53,293 nt of DNA from Planctomycetota bacterium (GTDB lineage Bacteria > Planctomycetota > Planctomycetia > Pirellulales > PLA5): positions 1-53,293 of the forward strand of contig JAJDEG010000122.1 in the NCBI GenBank assembly GCA_029259895.1, read 5' to 3'. Under the pieces are notes generated by a model. It was not told the origin of the DNA and searched no databases. It saw nothing but the letters and a program-made list of their open reading frames with translations. Made by a program: the position numbers and the translations under genes. Position 1 is the first letter of the stretch; each line of letters opens with the position of its first letter. Positions 196-15,454 of this stretch are shown one piece after another.

Positions 196-1356
196 GTGTT
201 TGCAGCACCTCATATCGTCATCGGCATGGATAAGTATAGTCACTTCGGAATACTGCAAGGTTTCTCGCATGAGACTTGGGTCAGATTCAAGACTTCTTAT
301 CTTTCCAGCTCACTAAGATATACGCCGAGCGACTGCTTCGAAACCTTCCCGTTTCCCGAATGTTCGGTAAGGCTTGACGTAGTGTCACGACACTACTACG
401 AGTCCCGTGCCATGTATATGTTGGCGAACAGTACAGGATTGACAGACACCTACAATCGCTTTCACGACCCCGGCGAAACTTCCGCCGACATTCAGAAGCT
501 CCGTGATCTGCATGTCGAGATGGATCAAGCGGTTGCCGCCGCCTACGGCTGGACCGATCTCGACCTCGGGCACGGCTTCCACGAAACCAAGCAAGGCGTC
601 CGTCTCACCATCAGCGAACCCGCCCGCCGCGAAGTCCTCCAGCGCCTGCTCAAGCTCAACCACGAACGCTACGCCGAGGAAGTCAAGCAAGGCCTGCACA
701 ACAAGAAGCGGAAGGGGACGAAGAGCAAGGGACGAGGGCGGAAGACCAAGGCGGCTCGCGGCAGTCCCACGCTGTTCGGTGATGAAAACGAAGAGCCGGA
801 CGCCGCCGACGCAGCGACCGAAGGCGACGCCGAAGACACGCCCACGGCCAACCGGCAACGCAGCGTGTCGAGCCGCTCGACGGAGGAATCGAGCCGCCCA
901 ACGCCCATCGAGGAAATCGCCTCCGACGAAATCATGGCCGCCTTCCGCCAAGCCGCCCGCGGCCGCGGATCGCTGGAGCGCGACGAGTTGCTCAAGGAAG
1001 CGTCGCTCATTCTCGGCTTCCAACGACTCGGACCCAAGATCGAAGAGGCATTGCGCGGCCACCTCCGCGCCGCCATCCGCCGCGGCATCATCGAAGCCGA
1101 CGGTGCCAACCTGGTCCGCGCAGCAACCACGTCAATGGCCGACTACGACCTCGAAGCCCTCCGCGAATCGTTCCGCTCGGTCATGCGCAAAGGCGCGAAC
1201 TACCAGCGCGAAGAAGTCATCCACGACCTAGCCCGCTACCTAGGCTTCGCCCGAGTCACCGACACCAGCCGCGACGCGATCAAGTCCGCCATCAACAGCG
1301 CCATCCGCCAAGGCATCCTCGGCTACGAAGGCAGCGAGATCTGGCGGGAAGAGTAA
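196..1356 (+). CDS. drmMI: 3' fragment of an MmeI/PglX/DrmMI-type N6-adenine DNA methyltransferase (post-catalytic/target-recognition region plus two tandem C-terminal helical repeats); no catalytic domain in the window
   Basis: The block KYSHFGILQGFSHETWVRF...LRYTPSDCFETFPFPE resembles the region following the catalytic domain in MmeI/PglX-type enzymes. The frame is open back to 61 and closed by TGA at 58-60. No FxGxG or NPPY-type motif is present. The C-terminus carries two similar ~55-aa units (LLKEASLILGFQRLGPKIEEALRGHLRAAIRRGIIE and VIHDLARYLGFARVTDTSRDAIKSAINSAIRQGILG). It sits at the head of the DISARM-like operon. Confidence 0.6.
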   Translation: MFAAPHIVIGMDKYSHFGILQGFSHETWVRFKTSYLSSSLRYTPSDCFETFPFPECSVRLDVVSRHYYESRAMYMLANSTGLTDTYNRFHDPGETSADIQKLRDLHVEMDQAVAAAYGWTDLDLGHGFHETKQGVRLTISEPARREVLQRLLKLNHERYAEEVKQGLHNKKRKGTKSKGRGRKTKAARGSPTLFGDENEEPDAADAATEGDAEDTPTANRQRSVSSRSTEESSRPTPIEEIASDEIMAAFRQAARGRGSLERDELLKEASLILGFQRLGPKIEEALRGHLRAAIRRGIIEADGANLVRAATTSMADYDLEALRESFRSVMRKGANYQREEVIHDLARYLGFARVTDTSRDAIKSAINSAIRQGILGYEGSEIWREE

Positions 1357-1388
1357 CTGAACCAACGACTTATCATGTGGGCTGATAC

Positions 1389-3062
1389 GTGATCCTCAAA
1401 AGCATCACACCACGTCACTTCGGACCGTTCATCGGCAACACGACGCTGCACTTCGATCCCGAAGTGACGGTCCTCACCGGTCCGAATGACGTCGGTAAGA
1501 GTCTGGCGTTGCGCGCGATTCAGTTGCTTTGCACGAAGCCCGCAGCCGAAGAACGCGAAGTCAATTGGAACCGATTCGGTGAGTTCGACGGAAAGTGGAA
1601 CGATGATCCGGACGTCTGCTGCGAGGCTGAGTTTGAGCTAACGCAGCAGTCAGTTGGATTGAAGGGCATTCCCCAGAATTACAAGCCAGGAACGCTCTTC
1701 CGCATTCGCAAGCGGCTAAACGTGCCGAGCAATGCCGCCGACATACTGGAAGCCCGAATTGGAAACACGAAGCCGCACGCGCAAGGCAACTGGGGGTGTT
1801 TTCCTCAAGTTCTGAGCCTTCCGCTCCAATCGGAAGTTCGGCCAAAGGTCGAGTTCGGGAGCCTCACGGAGGCGGAGAAGCACCTGTTGTGGCTGGGATT
1901 CGGCGGCAAGGCGGCAATAAGGCAACTCTCTACCTTGGACGATTTATCACGCGCGATTCGCATTGATGCGGCAACCACATTGCTGAACGAACGCCTGTTG
2001 CAGCTTCTGCCACTGGCGATGCCGATGCAATTGAAGTTGACCGAGGTGTCCAAGGACCCCTTTGCATTGGGCGTTAGCTTGATCGACCAACAATTGGGGT
2101 ACTTTCCCGTCAACTACCGCGGAACGGGTTTGCGAAAGCTACTCAACATCGCCGGCGCCTTGCTGCAACTCAATCCGACCGCCGGCCCTGCGATCATAAT
2201 CTTTGATGAGCCGGAATCGTCGCTTCATTCCGATGCGCAGCACATGCTTCGCCGTTTCCTTGAGGGCATCGCAGCCCAGCCGACATTCCAAGTCGTCTAT
2301 TCGACACACTCGCCGGCGATGATTAACACGCTGCGACCAAATTCGATCCGCGTTTTGGAGCGAAGGCGCGATGGCGACAAGGCTATATCTTGCTTCACGA
2401 AGGACACTTTCTCCGGGAACTATGCTCGTGTGCGATCGAGTCTCGGAATCACGCCCGCCGATTCGCTGCTCTATTCGCCGATCACTATCGTCGTCGAGGG
2501 AATCACGGAAGTCCTTTGTCTGCCGCTAGTCTTCGACAAACTGGCCAAGGCGGGAACGCTGGACAAAGCGCAACTCGACGTTCTGCTCCCGCTCACGCAC
2601 ATTCTCGATGGTGAGGGCGACACGTTCGAGCACCTGTGCCGACTTGCAAAGTCACAAGGCGCGCATCCGATCCTGTTCCTCGACGGCGACAAGTCGAATC
2701 GGCTAACAAAGGTTTGCAAAATGCACTCCGATGTCCCGATCGTGTTACTGCCAGAGCGACGCGAGTTCGAGCAAATCGTCCCACAACCGCGTTATATTGA
2801 AGCCGTTGCCGGTCTCCTTGGCGAAGCGTCAACGGAGATCACCGATGCTGGATTTACTACATGGCAGGCTCAAGCGGCCCTGCATGAGAAGATGGCCTTC
2901 TCCAAACGGGTCGATCGATGGATCGAAGACAAAATCGGTTATTCTCCGCACAAGCCATCCGTGATGGCGAAAGCGATCGAGTTGACGGATGCAGCCGAGC
3001 TCGACGCGGCGCCATTCGTAGAACTCGTTGAGAAAATGAAGACTGTTAGCGAAAGGCTCTAA
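1389..3062 (+). CDS. OLD-family ATP-dependent endonuclease (ABC/AAA15-type ATPase fused to a Toprim domain)
   Basis: GTG start. Walker A is LTGPNDVGKSLALRAI, Walker B is AIIIFDEPESSLHSDAQ, and VVYSTHSPAMIN follows. The C-terminal Toprim has ITIVVEGITEVLCLPLV (EGxxE) and PILFLDGDKSN (DxD). It lies 32 nt after the methylase fragment and 2 nt before drmA. Confidence 0.8.
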   Translation: MILKSITPRHFGPFIGNTTLHFDPEVTVLTGPNDVGKSLALRAIQLLCTKPAAEEREVNWNRFGEFDGKWNDDPDVCCEAEFELTQQSVGLKGIPQNYKPGTLFRIRKRLNVPSNAADILEARIGNTKPHAQGNWGCFPQVLSLPLQSEVRPKVEFGSLTEAEKHLLWLGFGGKAAIRQLSTLDDLSRAIRIDAATTLLNERLLQLLPLAMPMQLKLTEVSKDPFALGVSLIDQQLGYFPVNYRGTGLRKLLNIAGALLQLNPTAGPAIIIFDEPESSLHSDAQHMLRRFLEGIAAQPTFQVVYSTHSPAMINTLRPNSIRVLERRRDGDKAISCFTKDTFSGNYARVRSSLGITPADSLLYSPITIVVEGITEVLCLPLVFDKLAKAGTLDKAQLDVLLPLTHILDGEGDTFEHLCRLAKSQGAHPILFLDGDKSNRLTKVCKMHSDVPIVLLPERREFEQIVPQPRYIEAVAGLLGEASTEITDAGFTTWQAQAALHEKMAFSKRVDRWIEDKIGYSPHKPSVMAKAIELTDAAELDAAPFVELVEKMKTVSERL

Positions 3063-3064: not shown

Positions 3065-6000
3065 GTGAGCAGTGGCGAACAAAACGCGACGGCAAAGGTG
3101 GTCCCCACACAGCACGCCCTGCGCGCGAAGCTGGAGGCAATGGTCCTGGGCGACTTGCTCGGCCCCGCCGCCGGCGAGAACGAGGAATTAACCGAACGCA
3201 CAGTTCGCGATCGCTATCTCGTCGGCGTCCTTGCGCCAAGTCGAGGGACGATCGCAAGCTCGTCGGCATCGGCGCCCGCCCCAAGCCCCACGCCCGTCGA
3301 TGACGAAGACGACGACATCCCGTCGATCCCCGACGAACTCTCCGCAGGCGGCAGCGACACAGCCGACGACGGCACGACCGACGCCGACGTGCCCGTGGTC
3401 CAGGCCCATCTGCCGTCGTCTTTTGGCATGAGCTTCTGCGTTGGCGCCGACGCCCAGGCGATCGAGGTGACCGCGGCGTGGGGCCAGTACAAGCGCGAGA
3501 AGCGCGAAGATCAAACCGACCACAAGGGCAATCCCTTGCGAGTCTGGAAACGCTACCCGCGCCGCGGCAGCTTCAAGCTGCCCCTCCGCGACGGGCCGAT
3601 CATCGCCACACCGCCCGACTCCCAGTTCCCCGACATCTATGTCCGCGGCCGGATCCGCGATCGAACGACGCATTTCGTCGTCACGCTGTTCCTGGTCAAC
3701 GCCCAGGAGGAGCAGCGTCCCAAGGACGAATTTCACATCTTCCAACCGACGTTGAAAGTTACTGGCGAAGACGGTCAGGCGGTGTTCTGCAAACGCTCGA
3801 CAGTCGGCGCAACCGACGACCTCGAAGAGCGGATGATGGCGATGCTCTACCGGCGCCACGTCGAGTTCGCCGTCGGCCACGGCATCAGCGTTCACGCGGA
3901 AGTCGCCAAGGATTCGCCCGACCGGGCCACGAGCATCGAGACGGTCATTGTGCCAACCTACGAAGTTCCGCGGACCGCCCCGCCGACCGCGGACGATGCC
4001 GACGAGAATCCGGCGTTCGCCAAATTGGCCGGGCTGGTCCTCGATATGAAGGTGCTGGCCGAGTCGGACGCCAAACAGCTTCCACGGCAGCTTGGCCCGC
4101 TGGTCGAAGCTTACCGCGAATGGATCGATCGCGAAGAAGCCAAGCTCAACGATTCGCATGAGGGCCTGTCGCAGTTTGGCGACGCCGGCCCCGTGGCCAT
4201 CGTCAATTGCCGCGCGACGCTCAAGCGGATCGAAGAAGGACTGGCTTTGTTCGGCAGCGACGCGCAGGCGTTCGAGGCGTTCCAGTTCATGAACCGGGCC
4301 ATGTGGCTCCAGCGGACGCACTCGATCTATGCTGAAAAAGTCCGCCGCGGCGAACAGCCCGACTTCGACCGCGACATCGACGAGCCGAAAAACCGAAGTT
4401 GGCGACCGTTTCAGATTGCGTTTATCCTGCTCAACTTGCCCGGCGTCTCAAAGCTCGATCATGCCGAGCGCGGCATCGGCCCTGAGGCGCTGGCCGACTT
4501 GCTCTTCTTTCCGACCGGTGGCGGCAAGACGGAAGCGTATCTTGGCCTGTCGGCCTACACGATGGGCCTGCGGCGGCTGCAAGGCACGGTCGCCGGACGT
4601 CCGGGCGACGAAGGTGTAGCCGTGTTGATGCGGTACACGCTGCGGCTCTTGACGATCCAGCAGTTTCAGCGGGCGACGGCGCTGATTTGTGCTTGCGAGT
4701 CGATCCGACGCAAAGCGTTGGAGCACGGCGACGCACGCTGGGGCAAGACGCCGTTTCGCATTGGCCTGTGGGTCGGCCGCCGCACGACACCCAATCGCAC
4801 GGACGATGCCGTCGAGGCGATCAAGCAGGCTCGCGGCAACCAATACGTCGGCGGCGGCATCGGCACGCCGTACCAGCTTACAGCCTGCCCGTGGTGCGGT
4901 AGCGCCATCGAGGCCGGCAAGCACCTCGACGCGCAGCCGTATCCACACGGTTCCGGTCGCACGCTCACCTATTGCGGCGACAAGTTCGGCCAGTGCCTCT
5001 TCAGCAAGCGCCAGGCGGCGAACGAGGGATTGCCCGTCGTCGTCGTGGATGAAGAGATTTATCGCCGCCTGCCGTCCTTGCTGATCGCCACGGTCGACAA
5101 GTTCGCCCAGATGCCGTGGAAAGGCGAAGTTCAAATGCTCTTCGGGCAGGTCAACGGAGTTTGTGCCCGCCACGGTTTCAAGTCGCCCGAGATCGAAGAC
5201 TCGTCGTCGCACCCGCAGTCGAAATTCGGTTTGCCGGCCGTCCGCATGCAGGAACACTCGCCGCTGCGTCCGCCGGATCTCATTATTCAGGACGAGTTGC
5301 ACCTCATCAGCGGCCCGCTGGGCACACTTGTAGGCCTCTACGAGACGGCGATCGACAAGCTCTGCACATGGGAAGTCGGCGGCAAGCAGGTCCGCCCCAA
5401 GGTGATTGCGTCAACGGCCACGATCAAGAACGCCGACGTCCAGGTGCGGAGCCTGTTTCTGCGGACGGTCAACGTCTTTCCGCCGCCGGGCCTCGACGTC
5501 CGCGACAACTTCTTCTCGGTGCAACGCCCGCCGACGGAACAGGAGTTCGGCCGACGCTACATCGGCATTTGCGCACCCGGCCGCCGGCTCAAAGCGGCGC
5601 TGATCCGCGTTTACACGGCGTTTCTCTGCTCGGCACAGGCGCTGTACGAAACGTCCGGCAATCGCGTCGACCCGTGGATGACGCTGGTCGGCTACTTCAA
5701 TTCGATGCGCGAGCTTGGAGGGATGCGGCGGCTCGTCGACGACGACGTGTTCTCCCGTTGCCGCAAACAGGACCGCCGCGGCTTGGCCAAGCGGTTTTTC
5801 AACGGCGATTACCTGGCCGAGTTGACCAGCCGTATGCGGTCAGAGGAAATCCCACAGACGCTCGATCGCCTGGAGGCCGGTTTCGATCCGGAACTCGACG
5901 AGCGCCGCAAAGCAGCATACAAAGCGAAGGACTTCAAGAACGCGCCCAAGAAACCGCTCGACGTGTTGTTGGCCACGAACATGATTTCGGTCGGTGTCGA

Positions 6001-6697
6001 CGTCAAACGGCTTGGCCTGATGGTCGTCGCCGGACAGCCAAAGGCGACTGCCGAATACATCCAAGCCACCAGTCGCGTCGGCCGTACGTTTCCTGGCTTG
6101 GTTTGCACGGTATTCAATTGGGCTAGGCCGCGCGACCTTTCCCACTACGAAACCTTCGAGCACTACCACGCGACCTTTTACAAGCACGTCGAGCCGCTTT
6201 CCGTGACGCCGTTCTCGCCGGGAGCGCTACAACGCGGGTTGGCCGGCTTGCTCGTGTCGCTCGTGCGGCTGCGGAGCAACGAGTTCAACCCGAATGAATC
6301 CGCCGCTCGCATCACGACCGGCAATCCTTACGTTCAGGACGCGATCGAAACGATTGTGCGGCGCGCGGAACTAATCGGTGACGGAAATGCAACGGGCGAC
6401 TTTTGCCGTGCGGAGCTGCTAAGCAAGGCCGACTTGTGGCAAGCCGAGGCCCAAAACACGACCGGCGGGCGCACGCTGACTTACACCGAGCGGTATGGCG
6501 CAGGCGGCCCCAAACGCGGAACGGCGGTCCAACTTCTCCGTAATCCCGGCACCGAGCGCTGGGAAGACTTCACGTGCCTTAACTCGCTGCGGGAAGTTGA
6601 GCCGCCGGTGAAATTCATCGTCAGCGATGGCGGTCTCGACGAAGTGACGAGCGTTGCCGATGCCGACGACGTGCCCGATGAGGAGGAATCGGCATGA
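3065..6697 (+). CDS. drmA: DISARM DrmA-like DExH-box helicase
   Basis: 1210 aa with a GTG start. Motif I is FFPTGGGKTEAYLG, motif II is IIQDELHLISGPLG, and motif VI is YIQATSRVGR. A 4-nt ATGA overlap joins it to the downstream DUF1998 gene. Confidence 0.85.
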   Translation: MSSGEQNATAKVVPTQHALRAKLEAMVLGDLLGPAAGENEELTERTVRDRYLVGVLAPSRGTIASSSASAPAPSPTPVDDEDDDIPSIPDELSAGGSDTADDGTTDADVPVVQAHLPSSFGMSFCVGADAQAIEVTAAWGQYKREKREDQTDHKGNPLRVWKRYPRRGSFKLPLRDGPIIATPPDSQFPDIYVRGRIRDRTTHFVVTLFLVNAQEEQRPKDEFHIFQPTLKVTGEDGQAVFCKRSTVGATDDLEERMMAMLYRRHVEFAVGHGISVHAEVAKDSPDRATSIETVIVPTYEVPRTAPPTADDADENPAFAKLAGLVLDMKVLAESDAKQLPRQLGPLVEAYREWIDREEAKLNDSHEGLSQFGDAGPVAIVNCRATLKRIEEGLALFGSDAQAFEAFQFMNRAMWLQRTHSIYAEKVRRGEQPDFDRDIDEPKNRSWRPFQIAFILLNLPGVSKLDHAERGIGPEALADLLFFPTGGGKTEAYLGLSAYTMGLRRLQGTVAGRPGDEGVAVLMRYTLRLLTIQQFQRATALICACESIRRKALEHGDARWGKTPFRIGLWVGRRTTPNRTDDAVEAIKQARGNQYVGGGIGTPYQLTACPWCGSAIEAGKHLDAQPYPHGSGRTLTYCGDKFGQCLFSKRQAANEGLPVVVVDEEIYRRLPSLLIATVDKFAQMPWKGEVQMLFGQVNGVCARHGFKSPEIEDSSSHPQSKFGLPAVRMQEHSPLRPPDLIIQDELHLISGPLGTLVGLYETAIDKLCTWEVGGKQVRPKVIASTATIKNADVQVRSLFLRTVNVFPPPGLDVRDNFFSVQRPPTEQEFGRRYIGICAPGRRLKAALIRVYTAFLCSAQALYETSGNRVDPWMTLVGYFNSMRELGGMRRLVDDDVFSRCRKQDRRGLAKRFFNGDYLAELTSRMRSEEIPQTLDRLEAGFDPELDERRKAAYKAKDFKNAPKKPLDVLLATNMISVGVDVKRLGLMVVAGQPKATAEYIQATSRVGRTFPGLVCTVFNWARPRDLSHYETFEHYHATFYKHVEPLSVTPFSPGALQRGLAGLLVSLVRLRSNEFNPNESAARITTGNPYVQDAIETIVRRAELIGDGNATGDFCRAELLSKADLWQAEAQNTTGGRTLTYTERYGAGGPKRGTAVQLLRNPGTERWEDFTCLNSLREVEPPVKFIVSDGGLDEVTSVADADDVPDEEESA

Positions 6698-8538
6698 CGG
6701 TTTCCAGCCATTTGAAGAAATCTGAGGTTGGTGAGGTTCGCCCCAGTCAAATCCTCACGACATTCGGCGTTGGCTCGTTGGTCGACTTGCCGAATATGTC
6801 GGTGATCGTCATGGGGCTGGATGACTGGCCGATTGGCGACGAGATTCACGAGGAGCGCTTGATGCGCTCCGCTCGCTCGATCCTCGGCCCTCAAGTCGCG
6901 CGGTTTCTTACGCCGCCACGAGGTCCGGAATCGCCAGGTTCGCAAACCAACTGGTTTGACGAATCTCGCCAGATCGGCGTGCCGGTGGCCCCGTTTCCGC
7001 GATGGATGGTCTGCTCGAAATGCCGGCTGCTCGCGCCCATCAGTTCCGGGCTTTTCGAGCCGAAGGTCTATCCCTATCGTCCCGACCGGGCATGCTATCT
7101 GCACAATTGCACGACGCAGGGCCGCGCGCCGCTCGTACTTCCGGCCCGTTTCATGGTGACGTGCGAACACGGCCATCTCGACGACTTTCCGTGGGTGGAG
7201 TTCGTGCACCATGGGCCGACGAATTGCCGTGGTTTGCTGTACCTCTACGAAGTTGGTGCCAGTGGCGAGGCGTTGGATGTCGAATTGAAGTGCGATGGTT
7301 GCGAGAAACGTCGCCGCATGGGCGAAGCGTTTGGCGTTAACAACCGCACGACGATGTCCGCCTGCCGCGGTCGTCGGCCACAATTACGCGATATGGATCC
7401 CAATGGCTGCGACCAAGACCACGTCAAGCCGATGCTGCAAGGCGCGTCGAACCTCTGGTTTCCTGTGGTGATTTCAGCGCTGTCCGTTCCGCAAGCAACA
7501 GACGAGCTAGGGCAGCGCGTCGATGAAAACTGGGCGGTGCTGGAGCAGGCCACAAGCCCCGAGGTACTACGTGCCTTTCGTTCAATCGGTCAACTCAGGG
7601 ATTTGGGCAATTACAGCGACGATCAGCTTTGGGAGGCGATGCGAAAGAAGCTTCAGGGCGCTTCGGCCGCGACCGCAGACCCGGACGACCTCAAGTCGCC
7701 CGAATGGCGCGTGTTTGCCAACCCCACCAGGGCAAAGGAAAGCCGCTCGTTCAAACTGCGTTCTGTCGATCCGCCCGCCGACTTTGCCAGGCATTTCGCG
7801 AAGATCGTCTTAGTAGAGAAGCTCCGCGAAGTTCGCACGCTCGTGGGCTTCACGCGCATCATGTCGCCGCGCGATTTTGACAGCGCGGCTGATCTTCCGC
7901 CCGAGAACCGGGCTAGAATATCGCGCAAGGATCCGACGTGGCTGCCTGCCAGCGAAACACGCGGCGAGGGAATATTCTTCCAATTCTCCGAATCGCTGAT
8001 CCAGGATTGGGTGCAACGCAATCGCGCCTACGATCGTGAGTTCGAGCTTGGCCACCAGGCATGGCGTGCCACCAAAAACCTTGATCCCAGCAAGGGCAAC
8101 CCGGGTATCCGTTACGTCTTGCTGCATACATTCGCGCACGCGCTTATCCGGCAACTGGCCATCGAATGCGGCTACACGAGCGCTTCGATCACGGAACGCA
8201 TCTACTCGCGCAATCCCGCCGACGGAGAGCCGATGGCCGGCGCGCTGATCTACACCGCCGCGCCCGACAGCGAGGGGACGCTCGGTGGCCTCTGTGCTCT
8301 TGGCGAACCCGACAAGCTTGGTCGGCACATCCGTCGGGCGCTGGACAAGATGAGCCTGTGCGCTTCGGATCCCCTGTGTGCTGAGCACGCCGTCGACGGT
8401 GGCGACAAGCTCCACGGAGCTTCCTGCCACGCCTGTTCGTTCCTGCCGGAAACGTCGTGCGAGCGTGGGAATAAGTATCTCGATCGGTCGGCCTTGGTCG
8501 CGACCGTGGAGCGCACGAACCTGGCATTCTTCGAGTGA
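6694..8538 (+). CDS. drmB: DISARM DrmB-like DUF1998 protein
   Basis: N-terminus is VRPSQILTTFGVGSLVDLPNMSVIVMGLDDW, with Cys-rich zinc-ribbon stretches. The C-terminal signature is LLHTFAHALIRQL...YTAAPDSEGTLGGL...CHACSFLPETSCERGNKYLDR, typical of DUF1998. It is translationally coupled to drmA. Confidence 0.85.
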   Translation: MTVSSHLKKSEVGEVRPSQILTTFGVGSLVDLPNMSVIVMGLDDWPIGDEIHEERLMRSARSILGPQVARFLTPPRGPESPGSQTNWFDESRQIGVPVAPFPRWMVCSKCRLLAPISSGLFEPKVYPYRPDRACYLHNCTTQGRAPLVLPARFMVTCEHGHLDDFPWVEFVHHGPTNCRGLLYLYEVGASGEALDVELKCDGCEKRRRMGEAFGVNNRTTMSACRGRRPQLRDMDPNGCDQDHVKPMLQGASNLWFPVVISALSVPQATDELGQRVDENWAVLEQATSPEVLRAFRSIGQLRDLGNYSDDQLWEAMRKKLQGASAATADPDDLKSPEWRVFANPTRAKESRSFKLRSVDPPADFARHFAKIVLVEKLREVRTLVGFTRIMSPRDFDSAADLPPENRARISRKDPTWLPASETRGEGIFFQFSESLIQDWVQRNRAYDREFELGHQAWRATKNLDPSKGNPGIRYVLLHTFAHALIRQLAIECGYTSASITERIYSRNPADGEPMAGALIYTAAPDSEGTLGGLCALGEPDKLGRHIRRALDKMSLCASDPLCAEHAVDGGDKLHGASCHACSFLPETSCERGNKYLDRSALVATVERTNLAFFE

Positions 8539-8541
8539 TCC

Positions 8542-9333
8542 ATGACACCGGAGCGTATCATCGTCGAGTCGGCATACGCCTTGGCGTGCAGTTTGCCAAG
8601 CAGCACGATTGAGTCGGTGGCTGCGGCCGTTCGCACTTGCCCCCTGGGATCATTGCGGGCCGAAATCTCCAGATTGGTTGCGCATCACCATCATCGCGAC
8701 CTTGCGCTCGGGTTCGTCGATCGTTGGCGAATGGACGCCAACAACGTCGACGCTCTAACGGTGAGCGTGGCACTGCAATCCGCGGCGCTTTCCGAACAGG
8801 CCCACCGCGATTCGCAATCGGTCGAACTTGTATGGACCGGCCCTGATACCGAGCACGCGCCGTTTCGCCGCACCGAGCAGGCGATCCTGCAACTCCTCGA
8901 CGCGGCGGAGGATCGCGTCACGCTCGTGAGTTTCGCCGTCTACCGAATTCCCAACGTCGGCCAGGCGCTGGTTCGGGCCGCAAGACGGGGCGTTCGACTG
9001 ACCGTAATCGTAGAAACACCGAACAAGATCGAAGGCGCCGGCGAGTACAACACGATCCAGGCCTTGGGGCCGGAGGTGGCATCGTGTTCGACGGTCTACT
9101 ACTGGCCAAAAGAGAATCGCCCGATTGGTGACAACAACAAGGTCGGCATCCTGCACGTCAAATGCGCGGTCGCCGACGGCGAGTGGTTGTTCCTCTCATC
9201 CGCCAACCTCACGCAGCAAGCGTTCACGATCAACATGGAATTGGGCATGCTCGTCCGCGGCGGAACAATGCCATCCCGCGTTGAGCAACAGTTCGAGCAG
9301 CTCATCCAGAGCGAAGATTTGCGAAAACTGTAA
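8542..9333 (+). CDS. drmC: DISARM DrmC-like phospholipase D-family (single HKD) nuclease
   Basis: The HxKxxxxD motif occurs in GILHVKCAVADGEWLFLSSANLT. The protein is 263 aa and starts 3 nt after the drmB stop. Confidence 0.8.
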   Translation: MTPERIIVESAYALACSLPSSTIESVAAAVRTCPLGSLRAEISRLVAHHHHRDLALGFVDRWRMDANNVDALTVSVALQSAALSEQAHRDSQSVELVWTGPDTEHAPFRRTEQAILQLLDAAEDRVTLVSFAVYRIPNVGQALVRAARRGVRLTVIVETPNKIEGAGEYNTIQALGPEVASCSTVYYWPKENRPIGDNNKVGILHVKCAVADGEWLFLSSANLTQQAFTINMELGMLVRGGTMPSRVEQQFEQLIQSEDLRKL

Positions 9334-9406
9334 CGGAATAGAGGGAAATCAAAGGAAGTGAGGACGGCGTAACGCTATCAACAAACGCCCGGGGAGACTG
9401 CAACTC

Positions 9407-12400
9407 ATGCCAGCGTCATCGCTTTTTCAAAACGGCGACACGGTTGTCCTGCGGTCCAACCGCGCGCAGGTCGGCAGGATAATCAGGGATCCGGATCTCG
9501 ATGGGGGCGAATATTGGTATCGAGTTCAATTCGCAGCGCAAGTCAAGAACGTTGTCGAAGACGACCTCGAATTGTTGACCGGAGACCTCGACTCCGTCGA
9601 GTCCCTGATAAGCCAGGGTCGCTGGGGTCACGTAGATTCGTTCCGGTGCGCGCTTGCCGTGGAACGGATTACTCAAACGGATAGTCGCAGCACGGTCTAT
9701 TCCTATCGGGCTCAGCGGATTCTCTTTGAAGCGTATCAGTATAAACCGCTACTCAAAATCCTCGATTCGCCTGATCGTCGGTTGTTGATTGCCGACGAGG
9801 TTGGGTTGGGAAAGACCATCGAAGCCGGCCTGATCTTGACTGAATTCGAGGCGCGCCATCGGTCACTCGACAGGGTGTTGATCGTATGTCCGTCGCGGCT
9901 CCGCCAGAAATGGCGTGAGGAATTGAATCGAAAATTCGACCAGGACTTCGAGATCTTCGACAAGCGCGCGTTGCTGCAGTACGTTGAACGCCTGCGCGAT
10001 AATCCCCACCGCAGCCGTTTACGGGCGATTGTCTCGATGCAAACGCTCCGCAACGAACAGCTTCGCGAACAACTCTTGGCCGAGGTGCCACAAATTGATG
10101 TCGTGATCGTGGACGAGGCCCACCATGCCAGAAACCCTCTCACGCAGACGTCCGAAACGCTCCGTGACATTGCGGCGATTGGCGTCTGCGTGGTCCTGCT
10201 CACGGCGACGCCGCTGCACTTGGGCAGCAAGGATTTGTTCACGTTGTTGAATGCGTTGCGGCCAACCGAGTTCCGCGACGCAAATGTTTTTGAGAACGAT
10301 CTGCGCCGCCATCGCGGCGTTATCGAAGCCGGATTGCGCGTTCGTACACGTGCTGCCGAGGCGTTGCCACAAGTCGTCGACCTGTTACGCGAGGTGTTCG
10401 TGGACGGATCGTTGTTCGATGTTCAGGATCCGTTGGCGAAACAGGTAATTGAGGAGATTCAGCAGGCGCCGCCCGAGGACGCGCGTGATTGGGTCGACTT
10501 AGAGCGGCGCATTCAGGATCTGCATCCGTTGGCCAGCATCCTCACTCGCACGCGGAAGCGCGACGTCCAAGAAAACGCGCCGATGCGTCGCGCCCACGTC
10601 GTTTCTTGCCCGTGGACTGAGGAGGAAGATGATGCTTATCGACGGCTTGTTAGGAGTGCCGCCAAGCGAGGCTGGATCCAGGGGCGTTTAGGTTTCGGCG
10701 AGATTCAGCGCGCTCGACAAGCGGCGAGCTGCCTCCCCGCGACGTACAATACGCACATGGCCCTTCCAGCGACGTCCGACGATGAGGCCGTCGAACTGTC
10801 GGACATCATGCCGAGCGAAACGCTGGAGGCTCCCGCGGATGAAGACGCACATGCCATTGGCCGCACGTCAGGGCCTTGGAGCGGGCCCGACTCCAAGTAC
10901 GCCAAGCTGCGTGAGATTCTTGATCTCCTGTCGGCGGAGGAACCGCAGGCCAAAGTCCTCGTGTTTTCCTACTTTCGAGGAACAGTGAACTACCTAGCGG
11001 ATCGTTTGTCGGCCGAGGGGTTTCCCGCCCTCTCGATTCACGGAGACGTTCGGTCAAGTCCAACGCGACCTGAGCATGACGAACGGGGCAGGCGGATACT
11101 ACAGTTTCGAGAAGATCCGAGCGTTCGCGCGCTCATTTCGACCGAGGTCGGTAGCGAGGGACTCGACTTTCAGTTTTGTCACCATGTCGTGAATTACGAT
11201 CTTCCCTGGAACCCGATGGTGGTCGAGCAGCGGATTGGCCGCATCGACCGATTCGGCCAGGAATCGAACGTCGTTCATATCCACAACCTCGTTGTCGAGG
11301 GAACGGTGGAAGATCGGATTCTCCTTCGACTATATAAGCGGATTGGGATTTTCGAGCAGAGTATCGGTGATCTTGAAGCCATCCTCGGCGAAACGGTCAG
11401 CGAACTACAGCGGGATTACGTCAGCGGCAAGCTGACGCCGGAAGAAGCGGATCTCCGCGTCGATCAGGCCGCCTGGGCGATCAATCGACGACGTTCACAC
11501 CTCGAGACCCTGGAGAGAAACGCGGCCGACCTGTTCGGGCACGACGAATATATCCGCCAGGAGATGGAACGCGTCGGTCGGCTGGGTCGCTTCGTCAGCG
11601 AGAATGCCATGTTGGCGGTCCTTCGCAGCTATCTCCAGATTTGCCATCCGACCATTCAGCTCTGGGAAGAAGTCACGGGGATTTTTGGATTGCGGCTGAC
11701 CGACGAATTGCGCCGCGACATCCAAGATGCTTCTCGCGGTGGGCATGTGTGGATGGATCGAAGCCGCAGCGGCCGTCTGTTGGTCACGACGCACGGCGAC
11801 ATTGCTTTCCGTCGGTCGGATGTCGAACTGATCAATGTCTCGCATCCCCTCGTACGTGCGGCGGTTGCCGCGATTGGCCAGCAATTAAAAGACGCGGCAG
11901 CGCGCGTTGGACAGGCAGTCGTGCGACTTGAGCGAAACGCAGACCTGGAGCTGTCGAGTGGCAAGTTTTTTGTTGCCGTTTTCACGCATCAGGTCGACGG
12001 CCTTCGAGCGAGGCAGATCCTGGAAACCGCGGCATGGTCCGAGACCGACGGCAGGCTACTCGGTGCCGAAGAGAGCGAACGTCTGCTACACCTCGTCGTT
12101 GAGCGTGGCCAGCAATGGGATAGTTCCCAGGACGCTCATGCGATGCCGACCGCGCTCTGGAATCAAATCGTCTCCCAAGTCAGAACCCGCAATCGCCACT
12201 TGCTAGAACGGGAGAAACGTGAAAATGAGGCGCTGTACGTCCGCCGCAGACGAGCGATTGAAGCGGAATACCAATACGACCGTCAACTGAAGGCCACGCG
12301 GCTTGAAACCGCCCGGGCGCGCGGTCGCGAAGACCGGATCCTGCGCGCATTTCAAGGGCAAGTGGACAAGGCAGACTCCAACCATCGTGAGAGACTCGCT

Positions 12401-12481
12401 AGCCTGGACCAGACGCGCGAAGTAAGTGCCCAACTATCGGATCCGGTCGCCGCCTGTCTCGTCGAGGTGCGGCGCATTTGA
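9407..12481 (+). CDS. drmD: DISARM DrmD-like SNF2-family helicase
   Basis: Motifs LIADEVGLGKTIEAGL (motif I), VIVDEAHHARN (DEAH) and helicase-C DLPWNPMVVEQRIGRIDRFGQ. The protein is 1024 aa. Confidence 0.85.
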   Translation: MPASSLFQNGDTVVLRSNRAQVGRIIRDPDLDGGEYWYRVQFAAQVKNVVEDDLELLTGDLDSVESLISQGRWGHVDSFRCALAVERITQTDSRSTVYSYRAQRILFEAYQYKPLLKILDSPDRRLLIADEVGLGKTIEAGLILTEFEARHRSLDRVLIVCPSRLRQKWREELNRKFDQDFEIFDKRALLQYVERLRDNPHRSRLRAIVSMQTLRNEQLREQLLAEVPQIDVVIVDEAHHARNPLTQTSETLRDIAAIGVCVVLLTATPLHLGSKDLFTLLNALRPTEFRDANVFENDLRRHRGVIEAGLRVRTRAAEALPQVVDLLREVFVDGSLFDVQDPLAKQVIEEIQQAPPEDARDWVDLERRIQDLHPLASILTRTRKRDVQENAPMRRAHVVSCPWTEEEDDAYRRLVRSAAKRGWIQGRLGFGEIQRARQAASCLPATYNTHMALPATSDDEAVELSDIMPSETLEAPADEDAHAIGRTSGPWSGPDSKYAKLREILDLLSAEEPQAKVLVFSYFRGTVNYLADRLSAEGFPALSIHGDVRSSPTRPEHDERGRRILQFREDPSVRALISTEVGSEGLDFQFCHHVVNYDLPWNPMVVEQRIGRIDRFGQESNVVHIHNLVVEGTVEDRILLRLYKRIGIFEQSIGDLEAILGETVSELQRDYVSGKLTPEEADLRVDQAAWAINRRRSHLETLERNAADLFGHDEYIRQEMERVGRLGRFVSENAMLAVLRSYLQICHPTIQLWEEVTGIFGLRLTDELRRDIQDASRGGHVWMDRSRSGRLLVTTHGDIAFRRSDVELINVSHPLVRAAVAAIGQQLKDAAARVGQAVVRLERNADLELSSGKFFVAVFTHQVDGLRARQILETAAWSETDGRLLGAEESERLLHLVVERGQQWDSSQDAHAMPTALWNQIVSQVRTRNRHLLEREKRENEALYVRRRRAIEAEYQYDRQLKATRLETARARGREDRILRAFQGQVDKADSNHRERLASLDQTREVSAQLSDPVAACLVEVRRI

Positions 12482-12502
12482 TTTTTTTGGCGAGGTGAGC
12501 CA

Positions 12503-13987
12503 ATGAGCATTTTGAAGCGTCTCATCGCATATCTTTTCCGACGCAATACGCGAGGCATTCCGGCTCGCAAGGGCAAAACACGACCGGCGCCGTTGCCGCC
12601 GCTTGGCCCGGCCGCGTCAAATCCCGCCGCCCCCAACGTGTCCCCGGTGGAATTCCCGGATCTGCCCGAATTCTTTGTCGAGACGCCTCAAATTGTCCCG
12701 GAAGATTCGGACGTTCACGTCGGCGACATTCCTCGGTCGCCCCCGCGACCCCCATCGACCGCCGTTGTCGTCGGCCTTGACTTTGGCACGCACTCCACCA
12801 AGTTGCTACTGCGAAAACGAAACTCGGAAACGGCTCAACTTATGCGGATCGACAAATCGCATCCCGCCTACCCGCCGTTCGCCGCTCCATCGCTAGTGAA
12901 AGTGCATGAAAAGCACGTGTACTTTGGCTCGCGATCGCTTGATATACCGGGCGGAACGCTCTTTCGTTCCTTGAAAGTCCGCCTGCTTGCAGCTCCATCT
13001 CCGAATTGCGATGACGAGGAGAATGCCCTCGGGCTAACACCAGACCTAATGGTCGCGTGGTTTCTGTCGTGGTGCATGGACCGGATCCGAAGAACTGTCG
13101 AAAAATACATTACGCAAGATGTCTCGAGACTCTTCATAAACGTCGCGGCACCGATGGATCATTTCGAAAATGAACAATTGAAGACGCGCTACCTGAAGAT
13201 CGTGCATGCCGCATGGCAATCGGTATTTGGCGAGGCACGGTTTCCAATGCGCCAATCAACGCACGTGGATGAAGCGACGCATCGATTTGCGTCGTGGTTG
13301 GCCGCGGATGTGCCCAGTCGAGAAACCCGCCTGTTCGAAGTGCTCCCGGAGTCCGTCGCGCCGATCGTGTCGCTGTCGCGAGACCCGCAGATGGACCCGG
13401 GCATGTACATGATCGTCGATATGGGTGCGGGAACGACCGAGCTTTCGGTGAACCACGTCGGTGAAGTGGGCGCCGATCAGCGGGTCTTGTGTTACGACGA
13501 TAATTCAACGCAATTTGGCGGTGACGACTTTGATTCGGCGGAGCAATACACTGACGGGGCGGCGAATTTGTCGCGGCGAATCGACAAACTCGTCGCGCAA
13601 TTCATGGGCACGTTTCGACCCACATGGTGTCGGGCTTATCAAAAAGATGGACGCAACCCAGCAGCACGCGAACGATGGCGTCATTTTCGAGTTCTTTTAA
13701 CTGGCGGCGGCGCGCGAAGGCCGGAAATCGAACGTGCGATCCGGTCGACCCTACCGCACCCGCCCTGGCCGGTGGGCGAGGAGCAATACGATGTCTCATG
13801 GCACGAGCCAACTGGAATTGTGTTGGACATGAATGAGAGCGCGCAGAAAATCCACTTGCTAGCAGTAGCCCACGGTCTTTCGGTCCCTCGGCAACAATGG
13901 CCCATTTTCTTCCTTCCCAGCGAGATCGATACCCAACAAGCTCCCCAAGTCGTCGAGCAACCTCAAGGCCACTGGTATGTTGGATGA
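12503..13987 (+). CDS. actin/Hsp70-fold (ASKHA superfamily) ATPase with a Pro-rich N-terminal extension
   Basis: Phosphate-1 motif VVVGLDFGTHSTKLLL, phosphate-2 motif YMIVDMGAGTTELSV and adenosine motif RVLLTGGGARRPEI. A GAGG RBS lies about 9 nt upstream of the ATG. It starts 21 nt after the drmD stop on the same strand. Confidence 0.75.
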   Translation: MSILKRLIAYLFRRNTRGIPARKGKTRPAPLPPLGPAASNPAAPNVSPVEFPDLPEFFVETPQIVPEDSDVHVGDIPRSPPRPPSTAVVVGLDFGTHSTKLLLRKRNSETAQLMRIDKSHPAYPPFAAPSLVKVHEKHVYFGSRSLDIPGGTLFRSLKVRLLAAPSPNCDDEENALGLTPDLMVAWFLSWCMDRIRRTVEKYITQDVSRLFINVAAPMDHFENEQLKTRYLKIVHAAWQSVFGEARFPMRQSTHVDEATHRFASWLAADVPSRETRLFEVLPESVAPIVSLSRDPQMDPGMYMIVDMGAGTTELSVNHVGEVGADQRVLCYDDNSTQFGGDDFDSAEQYTDGAANLSRRIDKLVAQFMGTFRPTWCRAYQKDGRNPAARERWRHFRVLLTGGGARRPEIERAIRSTLPHPPWPVGEEQYDVSWHEPTGIVLDMNESAQKIHLLAVAHGLSVPRQQWPIFFLPSEIDTQQAPQVVEQPQGHWYVG

Positions 13988-14361
13988 TGGTTTGCTTTCA
14001 CAACGCACCCATACCGAGGGGCACGGTCAGCCGTAAACAACGATAGTGCCGCCAATCGTCTCCGTGACGTCACCGACATGCGCCCCACATTCGACGAAGC
14101 CGCCCTCCGCGGCCTCAAATTCTCCGAGTGCTTGCCGCTCGATCTGGCAACGGAAATGTTGGAGCAACGGCTTCAGGACGACGATGCCATGCAGCAAATT
14201 CTCAATGGTGCCGTGTGATTCTGCGTCGAACAATTACCCAGCCACCGCGGTCGTTTCCAGCAGTCAATCGATCAAGACTTTCGGATGATTCCTACGCTCC
14301 GATGTGCGGCTGGATTCCAGAGGCATATGATATGCGCGGCCGACACGACGCGCGACGCGAC

Positions 14362-14916: not shown

Positions 14917-15205
14917 GTTGAAGCACCCGTGCAATCGGTAAGACATGCGGCAAATAAGCTTCTGGCCGCTGCCACAACGGCCCATTCAATTCGCCTCCTC
15001 TGCCATCACCGCCGCGCGCTAAGCCAATTCGGCGTAGCCCTCGGCGAATTCTAAGCGGAGACGCGACTCGTTCGCTACTCCGCGCCAAACCGCCAAAGTC
15101 ACTTTGAAAAAAAATGTCGCCTGCCGCACCAAAACGGCAATTTACTATTGGGACTCTCGGCCGAATTGCCACGTCACCAGACCGCGCGGCAACCTGCGGC
15201 ATTTC

Positions 15206-15400: not shown

Positions 15401-15429
15401 TGCTTTGTCTCCTCGAATAATTTGAATGC

Positions 15430-15454
15430 GAACTTTCGTAAACGTTGCTACGTC
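15430..15454 (+). promoter_or_regulatory. candidate ECF-type promoter (GAAC-N17-CGTC) upstream of the ECF sigma gene
   Basis: The sequence is tgcGAACtttcgtaaacgttgctaCGTCgta, about 110 nt upstream of the sigma start at 15566. It matches the generic ECF -35/-10 pattern. Confidence 0.3.

What the first reader, a model, noticed from the sequence alone, without database searches (positions are those of the whole stretch)
12503..13987. Actin/Hsp70-fold ATPase as the terminal gene of the defence operon
Seen: all three ASKHA nucleotide-binding motifs are present (GLDFGTHSTK, VDMGAGTTE, LLTGGGA). They follow an ~85-aa Pro-rich, low-complexity N-terminus. The gene has a GAGG RBS and starts 21 nt after drmD. 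It has no peptide-binding domain like DnaK, and it does not look like MreB, FtsA or ParM outside the motifs. Inference: an ASKHA-fold ATPase is not a described DISARM component. It may be a filament-former, a chaperone-like regulator, or a separate single-gene defence candidate riding on the operon.
Basis: partly seen in the sequence, partly recalled or inferred. Interest (0 to 1): 0.65.

Follow-up and report, generated by a model that had tools for sequence, protein, structure and literature searches.

The report
Hsp70-like ATPase partnered with SNF2 helicase
The gene encodes a real Hsp70/actin-fold ATPase, but it is not a lone rider on DISARM: it is the fixed partner of the SNF2 helicase just upstream, and this undescribed two-gene cassette recurs in bacterial anti-phage defence islands with or without DISARM.

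Summary
ORF 12503-13987 (+) encodes 494 aa with the three ASKHA motifs, a Pro-rich N-terminus, a GAGG RBS and a 21-nt gap. The AlphaFold2 model (pLDDT 84.6, pTM 0.80) matches Hsp70/DnaK nucleotide-binding domains best (Foldseek E 3e-13). There is no substrate-binding domain.

The interpretation needs correcting.
- In 57 of 57 assessable homolog loci, the ATPase lies directly downstream of one particular SNF2 helicase clade. These loci come from Planctomycetota, Acidobacteriota, Actinomycetota, a Shinella isolate and metagenomes.
- The two proteins co-diverge (Mantel r 0.96).
- In several loci it sits beside a bona fide DrmD, so it is a DrmD/RapA-like paralog.

The pair is a cassette. It abuts or sits inside DISARM class 1, ARMADA-like or Druantia III loci in roughly 40% of well-sampled cases, in any orientation. 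Elsewhere it lies next to Azaca, RM systems or integrases, or stands alone.

Most homologs carry an N-terminal amphipathic helix, and nine carry a transmembrane helix plus coiled coil. This suggests membrane tethering.

No Pfam, NCBIfam or PADLOC model covers the ATPase, and no searched paper describes it. Its function is inferred: an ATP-gated regulatory or anchoring subunit of the SNF2 motor.

The parts
12503..13987 (+). Gene for the 494-aa Hsp70-NBD-like (ASKHA) ATPase, the subject of the finding
   Evidence: ORF. 130+ homologs, all annotated 'hypothetical'. AF2 pLDDT 84.6. Foldseek best match is the Hsp70 NBD, E 3e-13.
12503..12550 (+). N-terminal amphipathic helix (residues 1-16, MSILKRLIAYLFRRNT), a putative membrane-targeting or docking element
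   Evidence: Helix 2-16 in the AF2 model, pLDDT about 82 for residues 1-10. The motif recurs in at least 90 of 195 complete homologs and is replaced by a TM helix plus coiled coil in 9. It is also present in distant clades.
12551..12757 (+). Pro-rich disordered linker (residues 17-85)
   Evidence: 18 Pro. pLDDT <50 for residues 14-63. Length and sequence vary among homologs.
12773..12802 (+). Phosphate-1 motif GLDFGTHSTK (residues 91-100)
   Evidence: D93, G95, T96, T99 and K100 are invariant in 47 sequences.
13346..13363 (+). PESVAP 'connect-1' motif with E283, which aligns to the DnaK catalytic residue E171
   Evidence: hhalign of family profile A1 against the DnaK NBD. E283 is invariant.
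13415..13441 (+). Phosphate-2 motif VDMGAGTTE (residues 305-313); D306 aligns to DnaK D194 and T312 to DnaK T199
13694..13714 (+). Adenosine motif LLTGGGA (residues 398-404)
   Evidence: G401 and G402 are invariant. The motif aligns to the MreB/actin-family 'GGG' motif in the PDB profile search.
12492..12495 (+). GAGG ribosome-binding site, 7 nt upstream of the ATG
   Evidence: Read directly from the sequence.
9407..12481 (+). Partner gene: a 1024-aa SNF2 helicase, DrmD/RapA-like (PADLOC DrmD sub-model PDLC02623). It is the conserved upstream neighbour of the ATPase.
   Evidence: PADLOC 475.6 bits. NCBIfam DrmD 363.9 bits, below the 610 cut-off, and RapA 217 bits. It lies upstream of the ATPase in 57 of 57 assessable loci. 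The fused AF2 model suggests a C-terminal long helical hairpin.
3065..9333 (+). DISARM class 1 core next to the cassette: DrmA 3065-6697, DrmB 6694-8538, DrmC 8542-9333
   Evidence: PADLOC. NCBIfam DrmA 1410 bits (cut-off 950), DrmB 670 (cut-off 240), DrmC_I 204 (cut-off 133).
196..3062 (+). DrmMI C-terminal fragment (196-1356, cut by the contig start) and an OLD/GajA-like AAA_15 ATPase (1389-3062)
   Evidence: PADLOC and Pfam. There is an in-frame stop at 58-60.

Best explanation
The gene encodes the second subunit of a conserved two-gene cassette. The first gene is a about 1020-aa DrmD/RapA-like SNF2 translocase, and the second is a about 400-530-aa Hsp70-NBD-like ATPase translated from the same operon. 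The cassette is a mobile defence-island module. It plugs into or sits beside YprA-helicase/MmeI-type-methylase systems (DISARM class 1 in this window; ARMADA-like and Druantia III loci elsewhere), and it also occurs without them.

Shown: the fold, the intact catalytic motifs, strict synteny and co-divergence with the SNF2 gene, the defence-island context, and the conserved N-terminal amphipathic or TM element.

Inferred: the two proteins form a complex. The ATPase uses its ATP/ADP cycle (catalytic residues D93, K100, E283, D306 and T312 are conserved) as a switch that licenses or positions the SNF2 motor. The N-terminal amphipathic helix plus flexible Pro-rich linker (a TM helix plus coiled-coil stalk in some lineages) tethers the machine to the inner membrane, where foreign DNA enters. 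In this window the cassette probably acts as an accessory or parallel arm of DISARM, not as a core DISARM subunit.
For: Fold and active site.

Synteny in the species-representative genome scan: the ATPase lies directly downstream of the SNF2 gene in all 28 assessable loci.

Synteny on metagenome contigs reached from ATPase homologs: all 13 loci, two of them near-identical (L032-L038, L119, L120, L122-L125).

Shinella isolate: the two genes overlap.

Reciprocal test: a metagenome scan seeded with the SNF2 protein found 21 of 23 clade members with downstream DNA carrying the ATPase. Of 49 other SNF2 helicases, none did.

Co-divergence: Mantel r = 0.96, with 0 of 2000 permutations as high.

Gene spacing: 4-nt overlaps or gaps of 8-21 nt in many loci.

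Defence context: DISARM genes lie next to the pair in the window and in L016, L024/26/27/28, L032, L036, L038, L061, L064 and L073. DruE3 lies directly upstream in L053, and DrmMI in L061. The pair is embedded in the order YprA helicase, SNF2, pair, methylase in L124. Azaca is adjacent in L122. Type I and IIG RM, PDC-S68 and GajB-like genes occur nearby. Integrases and AbiEii occur nearby.

N-terminal anchor survey.
Against: No physical interaction was shown. An AF2 run on a fused SNF2(399-1024)+ATPase chain gave pTM 0.39 and mean pLDDT 62, with no confident arrangement. That run used a shallow MSA and omitted the SNF2 N-terminal half, so it is inconclusive.

The cassette has no recognisable nuclease or toxin effector, so autonomous defence is unproven.

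Some loci (L037, L120, L125) have housekeeping-looking neighbours.

About 59 of 195 homologs have little or no N-terminal extension, and some helices are rather polar. Membrane tethering is therefore not universal and could instead be a protein-docking helix.

Two SNF2 clade members (L040, L042) lack the ATPase.
Confidence: 0.6

Rival explanations
1. It is a dedicated extra DISARM subunit. The SNF2 gene is simply this organism's DrmD, and the ATPase is a lineage-specific DISARM regulator that works only within the DrmA/B/C/MI complex.
For: In the window it is co-directional with, and 21 nt from, the end of a verified DrmMI-DrmA-DrmB-DrmC cluster. PADLOC files the SNF2 gene under a DrmD sub-model. 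DISARM genes recur next to the pair. The contig starts inside DrmMI, so no other DrmD can be seen here.
Against: Most pairs have no DrmA/B/C within 7-10 kb on either side. Where DISARM is near, orientation varies: convergent in L032 and L038, divergent in L016 and L024-28. In L024/26/27/28/36/73 a canonical DrmD is also present, so the cassette helicase is an additional SNF2. The helicase fails the NCBIfam DrmD cut-off. The pair also associates with Druantia III, ARMADA-like and Azaca loci.
Confidence: 0.15
2. The two genes are a self-sufficient two-gene anti-phage system that merely co-localises with other systems in defence islands.
For: Stand-alone occurrences include L006, L008, L013, L017, L018, L022, L023, L033, L037, L121 and L125. 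Neighbours include integrases, transposases and TA genes. Distribution across phyla is sporadic.
Against: No nuclease or other effector domain was detected in either protein. Embedding inside an operon between the SNF2 and methylase genes (L124) and tight co-direction with DrmC, DruE or DrmMI (window, L053, L061) look like functional integration rather than neighbourhood.
Confidence: 0.2
3. It is an actin-like filament former (ParM/MreB/AlfA-type) or a classical Hsp70-type chaperone, unrelated in mechanism to the helicase.
For: It has the ASKHA fold with an intact ATP site. MreB is among the structural hits (E 2e-10). E. coli MreB carries an N-terminal amphipathic helix (background knowledge).
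Against: There is no substrate-binding domain and no DnaJ or GrpE nearby. Pfam HSP70 and MreB scores are far below their cut-offs. No plasmid or phage copies were found, which argues against a segregation role. Strict pairing with an SNF2 gene is not expected for cytoskeletal or chaperone paralogs.
Confidence: 0.05

Closest known systems
Hsp70/DnaK nucleotide-binding domain (ASKHA superfamily)
   Same: It is the best structural match (Foldseek E 3e-13, prob 1.0). Sequence-level matches run from EPTAAA through DLGGGT to GGEDFD. E283 aligns to DnaK E171, D306 to D194 and T312 to T199.
   Different: There is no substrate-binding domain or lid. Identity is only 12-15%. The Pfam HSP70 score is 9.6 against a cut-off of 20.6. 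Subdomain IIB appears reduced. The protein has its own N-terminal helix plus Pro-rich linker, and it is paired with an SNF2 helicase rather than with J-protein or GrpE partners.
DISARM class 1 (DrmD, DrmMI, DrmA, DrmB, DrmC; Ofir et al. 2018, as cited in PMC11090510 and PMC13463889)
   Same: It sits at the 3' end of a verified DrmMI/DrmA/DrmB/DrmC cluster. Its partner helicase is the nearest relative of DrmD.
   Different: An ASKHA ATPase is not a defined DISARM gene. The partner helicase fails the DrmD equivalog cut-off. The pair occurs mostly without DISARM and sometimes alongside a true DrmD.
ARMADA / YprA-family systems (bioRxiv 10.1101/2025.09.15.676423; PMC13463889)
   Same: These systems combine a BrxHII/RapA-like SNF2 helicase, a PglX/MmeI-like methylase, a YprA helicase and sometimes a UvrD/GajB-like helicase. 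The pair is embedded in such an operon in L124 and lies next to UvrD plus a YprA-like helicase in L119.
   Different: The ARMADA descriptions searched do not mention any Hsp70/actin-fold partner. In L124 the cassette helicase is additional to the ArmA/DpdE-like SNF2.
CoCoNuT CnuD / Hsp70-like domains fused to McrB or McrC (PMC11090510)
   Same: It is an Hsp70-like ATPase recruited into a nucleic-acid-targeting defence system.
   Different: CnuD keeps both NBD and SBD, has degenerate catalytic motifs, is proposed to bind RNA, and partners with McrBC GTPase systems. Here the protein is NBD only, its catalytic residues are invariant, and its partner is an SNF2 helicase.
Eukaryotic Snf2 remodellers with actin/Arp modules (SWI/SNF, INO80, SWR1) - analogy from background knowledge
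   Same: An Snf2-family ATPase is paired with an actin/Hsp70-fold protein acting as an accessory subunit.
   Different: There is no evidence of homology beyond the superfamily level. The bacterial protein is closer to Hsp70 than to actin. No HSA-like binding was demonstrated, and the fused AF2 model was inconclusive.
PADLOC candidate PDC-M61B
   Same: It is the only PADLOC model hit by the family (E 4e-4 to 2e-6). The hit suggests that it too is an Hsp70-like protein.
   Different: The match covers only about 35-45 residues around the phosphate-2 motif of a 588-position profile. It is not the same family.
Zorya (ZorAB membrane complex plus the SNF2-type ZorD; PMC11946911) - functional analogy
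   Same: It is a defence system that couples a membrane-anchored component to an SNF2-family helicase.
   Different: There is no sequence or architectural relationship. Membrane anchoring here is only inferred from N-terminal helices.

Membership tests
ASKHA superfamily (actin / Hsp70 / sugar kinase fold) | Two RNase-H-like lobes that bind nucleotide between them | tested here: met
   AF2 model with pLDDT 84.6 and pTM 0.80. There were 371 PDB matches at E<=1e-3, led by Hsp70 NBDs and MreB.
ASKHA superfamily (actin / Hsp70 / sugar kinase fold) | Phosphate-1, connect-1, phosphate-2 and adenosine motifs | tested here: met
   GLDFGTHSTK, PESVAP, VDMGAGTTE and LLTGGGA are present. Their key residues are invariant in 47 homologs.
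Hsp70/DnaK chaperones | Passes the Pfam HSP70 (PF00012) gathering threshold | tested here: not met
   9.6 bits against a cut-off of 20.6. No NCBIfam hit.
Hsp70/DnaK chaperones | C-terminal substrate-binding domain and lid | tested here: not met
   The chain ends about 25 residues after the NBD fold. The secondary-structure map shows no beta-sandwich SBD.
Hsp70/DnaK chaperones | J-domain or GrpE co-chaperone partners in the neighbourhood | tested here: not met
   None among the window genes or the neighbours of homologs.
MreB/ParM/FtsA actin-like filament proteins | Family-level sequence membership (Pfam MreB_Mbl) | tested here: not met
   11.9 bits against a cut-off of 27.
MreB/ParM/FtsA actin-like filament proteins | ATP-dependent polymerisation | not testable with these tools
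   This needs purified protein or in vivo imaging.
DISARM class 1 system (the locus) | DrmA, DrmB and DrmC present and passing curated cut-offs, plus the DrmMI methylase | tested here: met
   NCBIfam DrmA 1410 (cut-off 950), DrmB 670 (cut-off 240), DrmC_I 204 (cut-off 133). PADLOC detects a DrmMI C-terminal fragment at the contig edge.
DISARM DrmD (tested on the upstream partner gene) | Passes the NCBIfam NF038317 DISARM_DrmD equivalog cut-off | tested here: not met
   363.9 bits against a cut-off of 610. The control, canonical DrmD in L024, scores 1311.7. The PADLOC sub-model PDLC02623, named DrmD, matches at 475.6 bits but has no curated threshold.
DISARM component (the ATPase itself) | Consistent co-occurrence with DrmA/DrmB/DrmC across homologs | tested here: not met
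   Most homolog loci lack DrmA/B/C within 7-10 kb. DISARM or related YprA systems are adjacent in roughly 40% of well-sampled loci, in varied orientations.
RapA/HepA (tested on the partner gene) | Passes the NCBIfam NF003426 cut-off | tested here: not met
   217 bits against a cut-off of 576, although the match covers profile positions 118-917 of 959.
CoCoNuT CnuD-type Hsp70-like defence proteins | NBD plus SBD unit associated with McrB/McrC homologs | tested here: not met
   No SBD. No McrBC genes in the window or in homolog neighbourhoods. The family is described in PMC11090510.
Proposed SNF2-ASKHA cassette (defined in this report) | ATPase gene immediately downstream of, and co-directional with, the PDLC02623-type SNF2 gene | tested here: met
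   In the window the gap is 21 nt. The arrangement holds in 57 of 57 assessable loci elsewhere.

The most novel reading that the evidence does not exclude
The SNF2 helicase and the Hsp70/actin-fold ATPase form a previously unrecognised, membrane-tethered two-subunit DNA-translocase machine. It would act either as an autonomous anti-phage/anti-plasmid system or as a portable 'front end' that can be bolted onto YprA-helicase systems (DISARM, ARMADA, Druantia III). That would make it a bacterial functional counterpart of the eukaryotic Snf2 plus actin/Arp arrangement. It would also mean that part of what annotation pipelines call 'DrmD' is a different system.
Probability: 0.35. Interest if true: 0.8.

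Novelty: new variant of a known kind. Interest (0 to 1): 0.66.

Why it matters
DISARM, ARMADA and Druantia are mechanistically unresolved helicase-based immune systems, and the role of their SNF2 component is the least understood part.

This work shows that one 'DrmD' sub-family always travels with an uncharacterised Hsp70-like ATPase that has an intact active site and a probable membrane anchor. That has three consequences.
- It corrects an annotation, because PADLOC's PDLC02623 'DrmD' is a separate cassette helicase.
- It defines a new protein family of at least about 1,600 50%-identity clusters at E<=1e-10 with no Pfam, NCBIfam or PADLOC model.
- It gives a simple, testable two-gene unit, present in a cultured Shinella isolate, for asking how SNF2 motors are regulated or localised in bacterial immunity.

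Tried and rejected
- Pfam, NCBIfam and PADLOC scans of the ATPase gave only sub-threshold motif-level hits: HSP70, MreB and PDC-M61B.
- Sequence search of the PDB gave only weak local DnaK/MreB hits.
- The IMG/VR viral contig scan and the GenBank phage tblastn found no homologs, so a phage origin was rejected.
- The PLSDB tblastn gave one hit. It lies in a 4.6-Mb Shinella replicon labelled as a plasmid, not in a small plasmid.
- An AF2 'complex' was attempted as a fused chain, SNF2(399-1024)+ATPase. Alignments with more than about 8+8 homologs were misaligned by MAFFT and discarded (A4, A6, A7). The usable alignment A5 gave pTM 0.39 and pLDDT 62, which is inconclusive.
- Promoter and terminator scans around 9200-14700 were at or below shuffle expectation and add nothing. 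The GC profile shows only a slight drop over the cassette.
- Pfam scans of the SNF2 N-terminal 105 aa, the SNF2 C-terminal 384 aa and the ATPase N-terminus found nothing.
- Literature searches for an SNF2 plus Hsp70/actin-like pairing in DISARM, ARMADA, BREX, CoCoNuT and conflict-system papers found no description. The library holds only open-access papers and bioRxiv, so absence is not proof.
- The 'single-gene rider' and 'housekeeping paralog' readings were considered and rejected on the synteny and context data.
Full report
**1. What is in the window**

ORF 12503-13987 (+) encodes 494 aa. The upstream ORF (9407-12481) stops 21 nt earlier, and a GAGG lies 7 nt before the ATG.

Upstream genes on the same strand:

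| Coordinates | Gene | Evidence |
|---|---|---|
| 196-1356 | DrmMI C-terminal fragment | Cut by the contig start; in-frame stop at 58-60 |
| 1389-3062 | OLD/GajA-like AAA_15 ATPase | PADLOC, Pfam |
| 3065-6697 | DrmA | NCBIfam 1410 bits, cut-off 950 |
| 6694-8538 | DrmB | NCBIfam 670 bits, cut-off 240 |
| 8542-9333 | DrmC | Class-I model 204 bits, cut-off 133 |
| 9407-12481 | 1024-aa SNF2 helicase | See section 4 |

Downstream, on the other strand, is a SLOG cluster-4 gene carrying an in-frame TAA. The ATPase gene is therefore the last gene of the + strand cluster. The ECF sigma factor (PF07638), the Ser/Thr kinase with an FGE-sulfatase domain, and the taxonomy of the closest homologs all indicate a planctomycete contig.

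**2. The protein**

No Pfam, NCBIfam or PADLOC family covers it. HSP70 and MreB hits are far below threshold, and the only PADLOC hit is a 35-45-residue match to candidate PDC-M61B around the phosphate-2 motif.

It nevertheless belongs to a sizeable family.
- A word-indexed search found 130 relatives, all annotated 'hypothetical'.
- An exhaustive profile search of 1.84 billion cluster representatives found 265 at E<=1e-30, 1610 at E<=1e-10 and 2623 at E<=1e-3.

In a 47-sequence alignment the nucleotide-binding residues are invariant: D93, G95, T96, T99, K100, E283, D306, G308, T312, E313, G401 and G402.

The AlphaFold2 model is confident (pLDDT 84.6, pTM 0.80). Foldseek places it with Hsp70-type nucleotide-binding domains: DnaK, Hsp110/Sse1 and BiP at E 3e-13 to 1e-10, and MreB at 2e-10. 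The viral structure library returns only Hsp70 homologs.

Profile alignment to the DnaK NBD lines up several key positions:
- E283 with the catalytic E171
- D306 with D194
- T312 with T199
- GGDDFD with GGEDFD

There is no substrate-binding domain. The protein is therefore an Hsp70-NBD-like ASKHA ATPase with an apparently competent active site.

**3. The decisive context result**

A scan of one genome per GTDB species returned 29 true relatives.
- In all 28 with upstream DNA, a homolog of the window's SNF2 helicase lies immediately upstream on the same strand. Identity to the window protein is 45-64% in Planctomycetota and relatives, and about 32% in Acidobacteriota.
- tblastn with the window's DrmA, DrmB, DrmC and DrmMI found them in almost none of these loci. 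The exceptions are L016 (a divergent DrmA) and L024 (DrmMI).
- All-against-all clustering of neighbours found no other conserved gene.

Thirteen metagenome loci reached through exact-protein look-ups all show the same pair (two are near-identical copies of one place). So does a cultured isolate, Shinella sp. PSBB067, where the two genes overlap.

The reciprocal test used an alignment of the SNF2 proteins to scan metagenome contigs.
- Full-length clade members scored >=580 bits to the clade profile. Of the 23 with sufficient downstream DNA, 21 carry a more divergent ATPase directly downstream.
- Of 49 other SNF2 helicases (<440 bits), none did.
- The exceptions are L040 and L042.

Pairwise distances of the two proteins are tightly correlated (Mantel r 0.96; 0 of 2000 permutations as high). 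The ATPase evolves faster. Gene spacing is typically a 4-nt overlap or 8-21 nt. The unit of inheritance is the gene pair.

**4. The partner is not DrmD proper**

PADLOC matches the window helicase best to DrmD sub-model PDLC02623 (476 bits). The main DrmD model PDLC02621 scores 250 bits.

NCBIfam's DrmD equivalog (NF038317, cut-off 610) scores it at 364, so it fails. RapA is second at 217 bits over most of its profile.

In Acidobacteriota loci L024, L026, L027 and L028, and also in L036 and L073, a canonical DrmD lies beside the cassette, usually followed by DrmMI. In L024 this DrmD scores 1382 bits on PDLC02621 and 1312 bits on NF038317. The cassette helicase is therefore an additional, paralogous SNF2. 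Whether the window also has a canonical DrmD cannot be seen, because the contig begins inside DrmMI.

**5. Where the cassette lives**

| Neighbourhood | Loci |
|---|---|
| Co-directional after DrmC | window |
| Convergent with DrmMI-x-DrmA-DrmB-DrmC | L032, L038 |
| Divergent from DrmA or from DrmD-DrmMI | L016, L024-28, L036, L073 |
| Directly after DrmMI | L061 |
| Directly after a Druantia III DruE | L053 |
| Embedded in the order YprA-like helicase, DpdE-type SNF2, pair, MmeI-type methylase | L124 |
| After UvrD plus a 1839-aa YprA-like helicase | L119 |
| After an MmeI-type methylase, an HSP70-TPR protein and UvrD | L034 |
| After a methylase plus MoxR-vWA | L123 |
| Next to a complete Azaca system | L122 |
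| Next to type I or IIG RM, PDC-S68 or GajB-like genes | several |
| Next to integrases, IS elements, AbiEii or PIN toxins | several |
| No recognisable defence neighbour | L037, L120, L125 |

No copy was found on viral contigs, phage genomes or small plasmids.

This is the signature of a mobile defence-island module with a marked, though not obligatory, affinity for YprA-helicase/MmeI-methylase systems. The 'single-gene rider' idea is not supported either.

**6. The N-terminus**

The '85-aa low-complexity N-terminus' has structure to it. Residues 2-16 (SILKRLIAYLFRRNT) form an amphipathic helix, followed by a Pro-rich disordered linker.

Among 195 complete homologs:
- At least 90 start with the same kind of helix, roughly M-x-hydrophobic-[W/F]-[K/R]-x-hydrophobic-hydrophobic-x-[W/L]-L-x-G, followed by a linker of 30-140 residues.
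- Nine instead start with a transmembrane helix followed by a 290-437-aa coiled coil.
- 59 have a short or absent extension.

The helix is also present in the distant Acidobacteriota, Microthrix and Shinella proteins.

Replacement of an amphipathic helix by a TM helix is most simply read as membrane anchoring. This is inference. Some helices are rather polar and could instead dock onto a protein.

**7. Mechanism**

Shown: the fold, the intact catalytic residues, obligate synteny and co-divergence with one SNF2 clade, the defence-island context, and the conserved N-terminal helix or TM element.

Inferred: the two proteins form a complex. The ATPase acts as an ATP/ADP-gated regulatory or positioning subunit of the SNF2 translocase, tethering it by a flexible or coiled-coil stalk to the membrane where invading DNA appears. 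In this window the cassette serves as an accessory or parallel arm to DISARM.

A direct computational test was inconclusive. AF2 on a fused SNF2(399-1024)+ATPase chain with 8+8 homologs gave pTM 0.39. That model did suggest that the helicase ends in a long helical hairpin.

Neither protein has a recognisable nuclease, which argues for cooperation with neighbouring systems or for a non-degradative mode of action.

**8. Comparison with what is known**

- The closest fold family is the Hsp70 NBD, but membership of Hsp70 proper fails on the Pfam threshold, the SBD and co-chaperones.
- Hsp70-like proteins have been reported in defence. CoCoNuT CnuD has NBD plus SBD, degenerate motifs and McrBC partners (PMC11090510). 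HSP70 also occurs with GTPase and tubulin in conflict systems (PMC7159879). Neither matches this architecture or partner.
- The DISARM, ARMADA/YprA and BREX analyses that could be searched do not mention such a partner.
- The eukaryotic Snf2-actin/Arp arrangement is an appealing functional analogy, but it is only an analogy.

**9. Verdict**

The real finding is a conserved, apparently undescribed SNF2 plus Hsp70-NBD-like ATPase cassette. In this window it is attached to a class 1 DISARM. I rate it a new variant of a known kind (an SNF2-containing defence module with a novel obligate partner), with interest about 0.66.

Noticed in passing
window 1389-3062 (+): A 557-aa OLD/GajA/PtuA-like AAA_15/AAA_21 ATPase is inserted between DrmMI and DrmA. 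The same slot holds GmrSD_N plus AAA_15 in L038 and a DUF1016/YhcG protein in L032. This suggests a variable accessory slot in these DISARM operons.
   Followed up: partly
window 1-1356 (+): Only the C-terminal end of DrmMI is present (PADLOC profile positions 1156-1340 of 1347). The contig starts inside the gene, and there is an in-frame stop at 58-60. The rest of the 386-aa ORF (residues about 190-386) is not DrmMI-like and weakly hits PDC-S37.
   Followed up: partly
window 14362-14985 (-): A SLOG cluster-4 (LOG-like) gene is split by a single in-frame TAA at 14686-14688. It is probably a pseudogene or a sequencing error.
   Followed up: yes
window 15104-19509 (+): A planctomycete-type ECF sigma factor (PF07638) is followed by, and overlaps, a 1229-aa Ser/Thr kinase with a C-terminal FGE-sulfatase domain.
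   Followed up: no
window 21965-33147 (-): Two consecutive giant ORFs of 2226 and 1501 aa. They were not examined.
   Followed up: no
L034 1-11245: On a 601-kb planctomycete contig, the operon runs MmeI-type methylase, a 751-aa HSP70-NBD plus TPR protein, a UvrD-like helicase, a 199-aa protein, then the SNF2-ATPase pair. A second, different Hsp70-like gene therefore sits in the same cluster.
   Followed up: partly
L124 1-16093: The pair is embedded inside an ARMADA-like operon, in the order DruE/YprA-like helicase, DpdE-type SNF2 (PADLOC 894 bits), pair, DrmMI-like methylase.
   Followed up: partly
L122 3324-9757: A complete Azaca system (ZacA, ZacB, ZacC, all strong PADLOC hits) lies directly downstream of the pair in one of the closest relatives (59% identity).
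   Followed up: yes
L123 1-14468: Co-directional island: MmeI-type methylase, CBS protein, MoxR-like AAA, 191-aa protein, vWA protein, the pair, ADP-ribosylglycohydrolase, HNH nuclease, ADP-ribosylglycohydrolase.
   Followed up: no
L019 2-1966 and L021 9672-10555: These are degraded copies of the cassette. In L019 the SNF2 C-terminus runs in frame into an internally deleted ATPase. L021 keeps only short remnants of both genes.
   Followed up: partly
L040 3553-10078: One of the two SNF2 clade members that lack the ATPase is instead preceded by a 985-aa SMC_N/AAA_15-type ATPase.
   Followed up: partly
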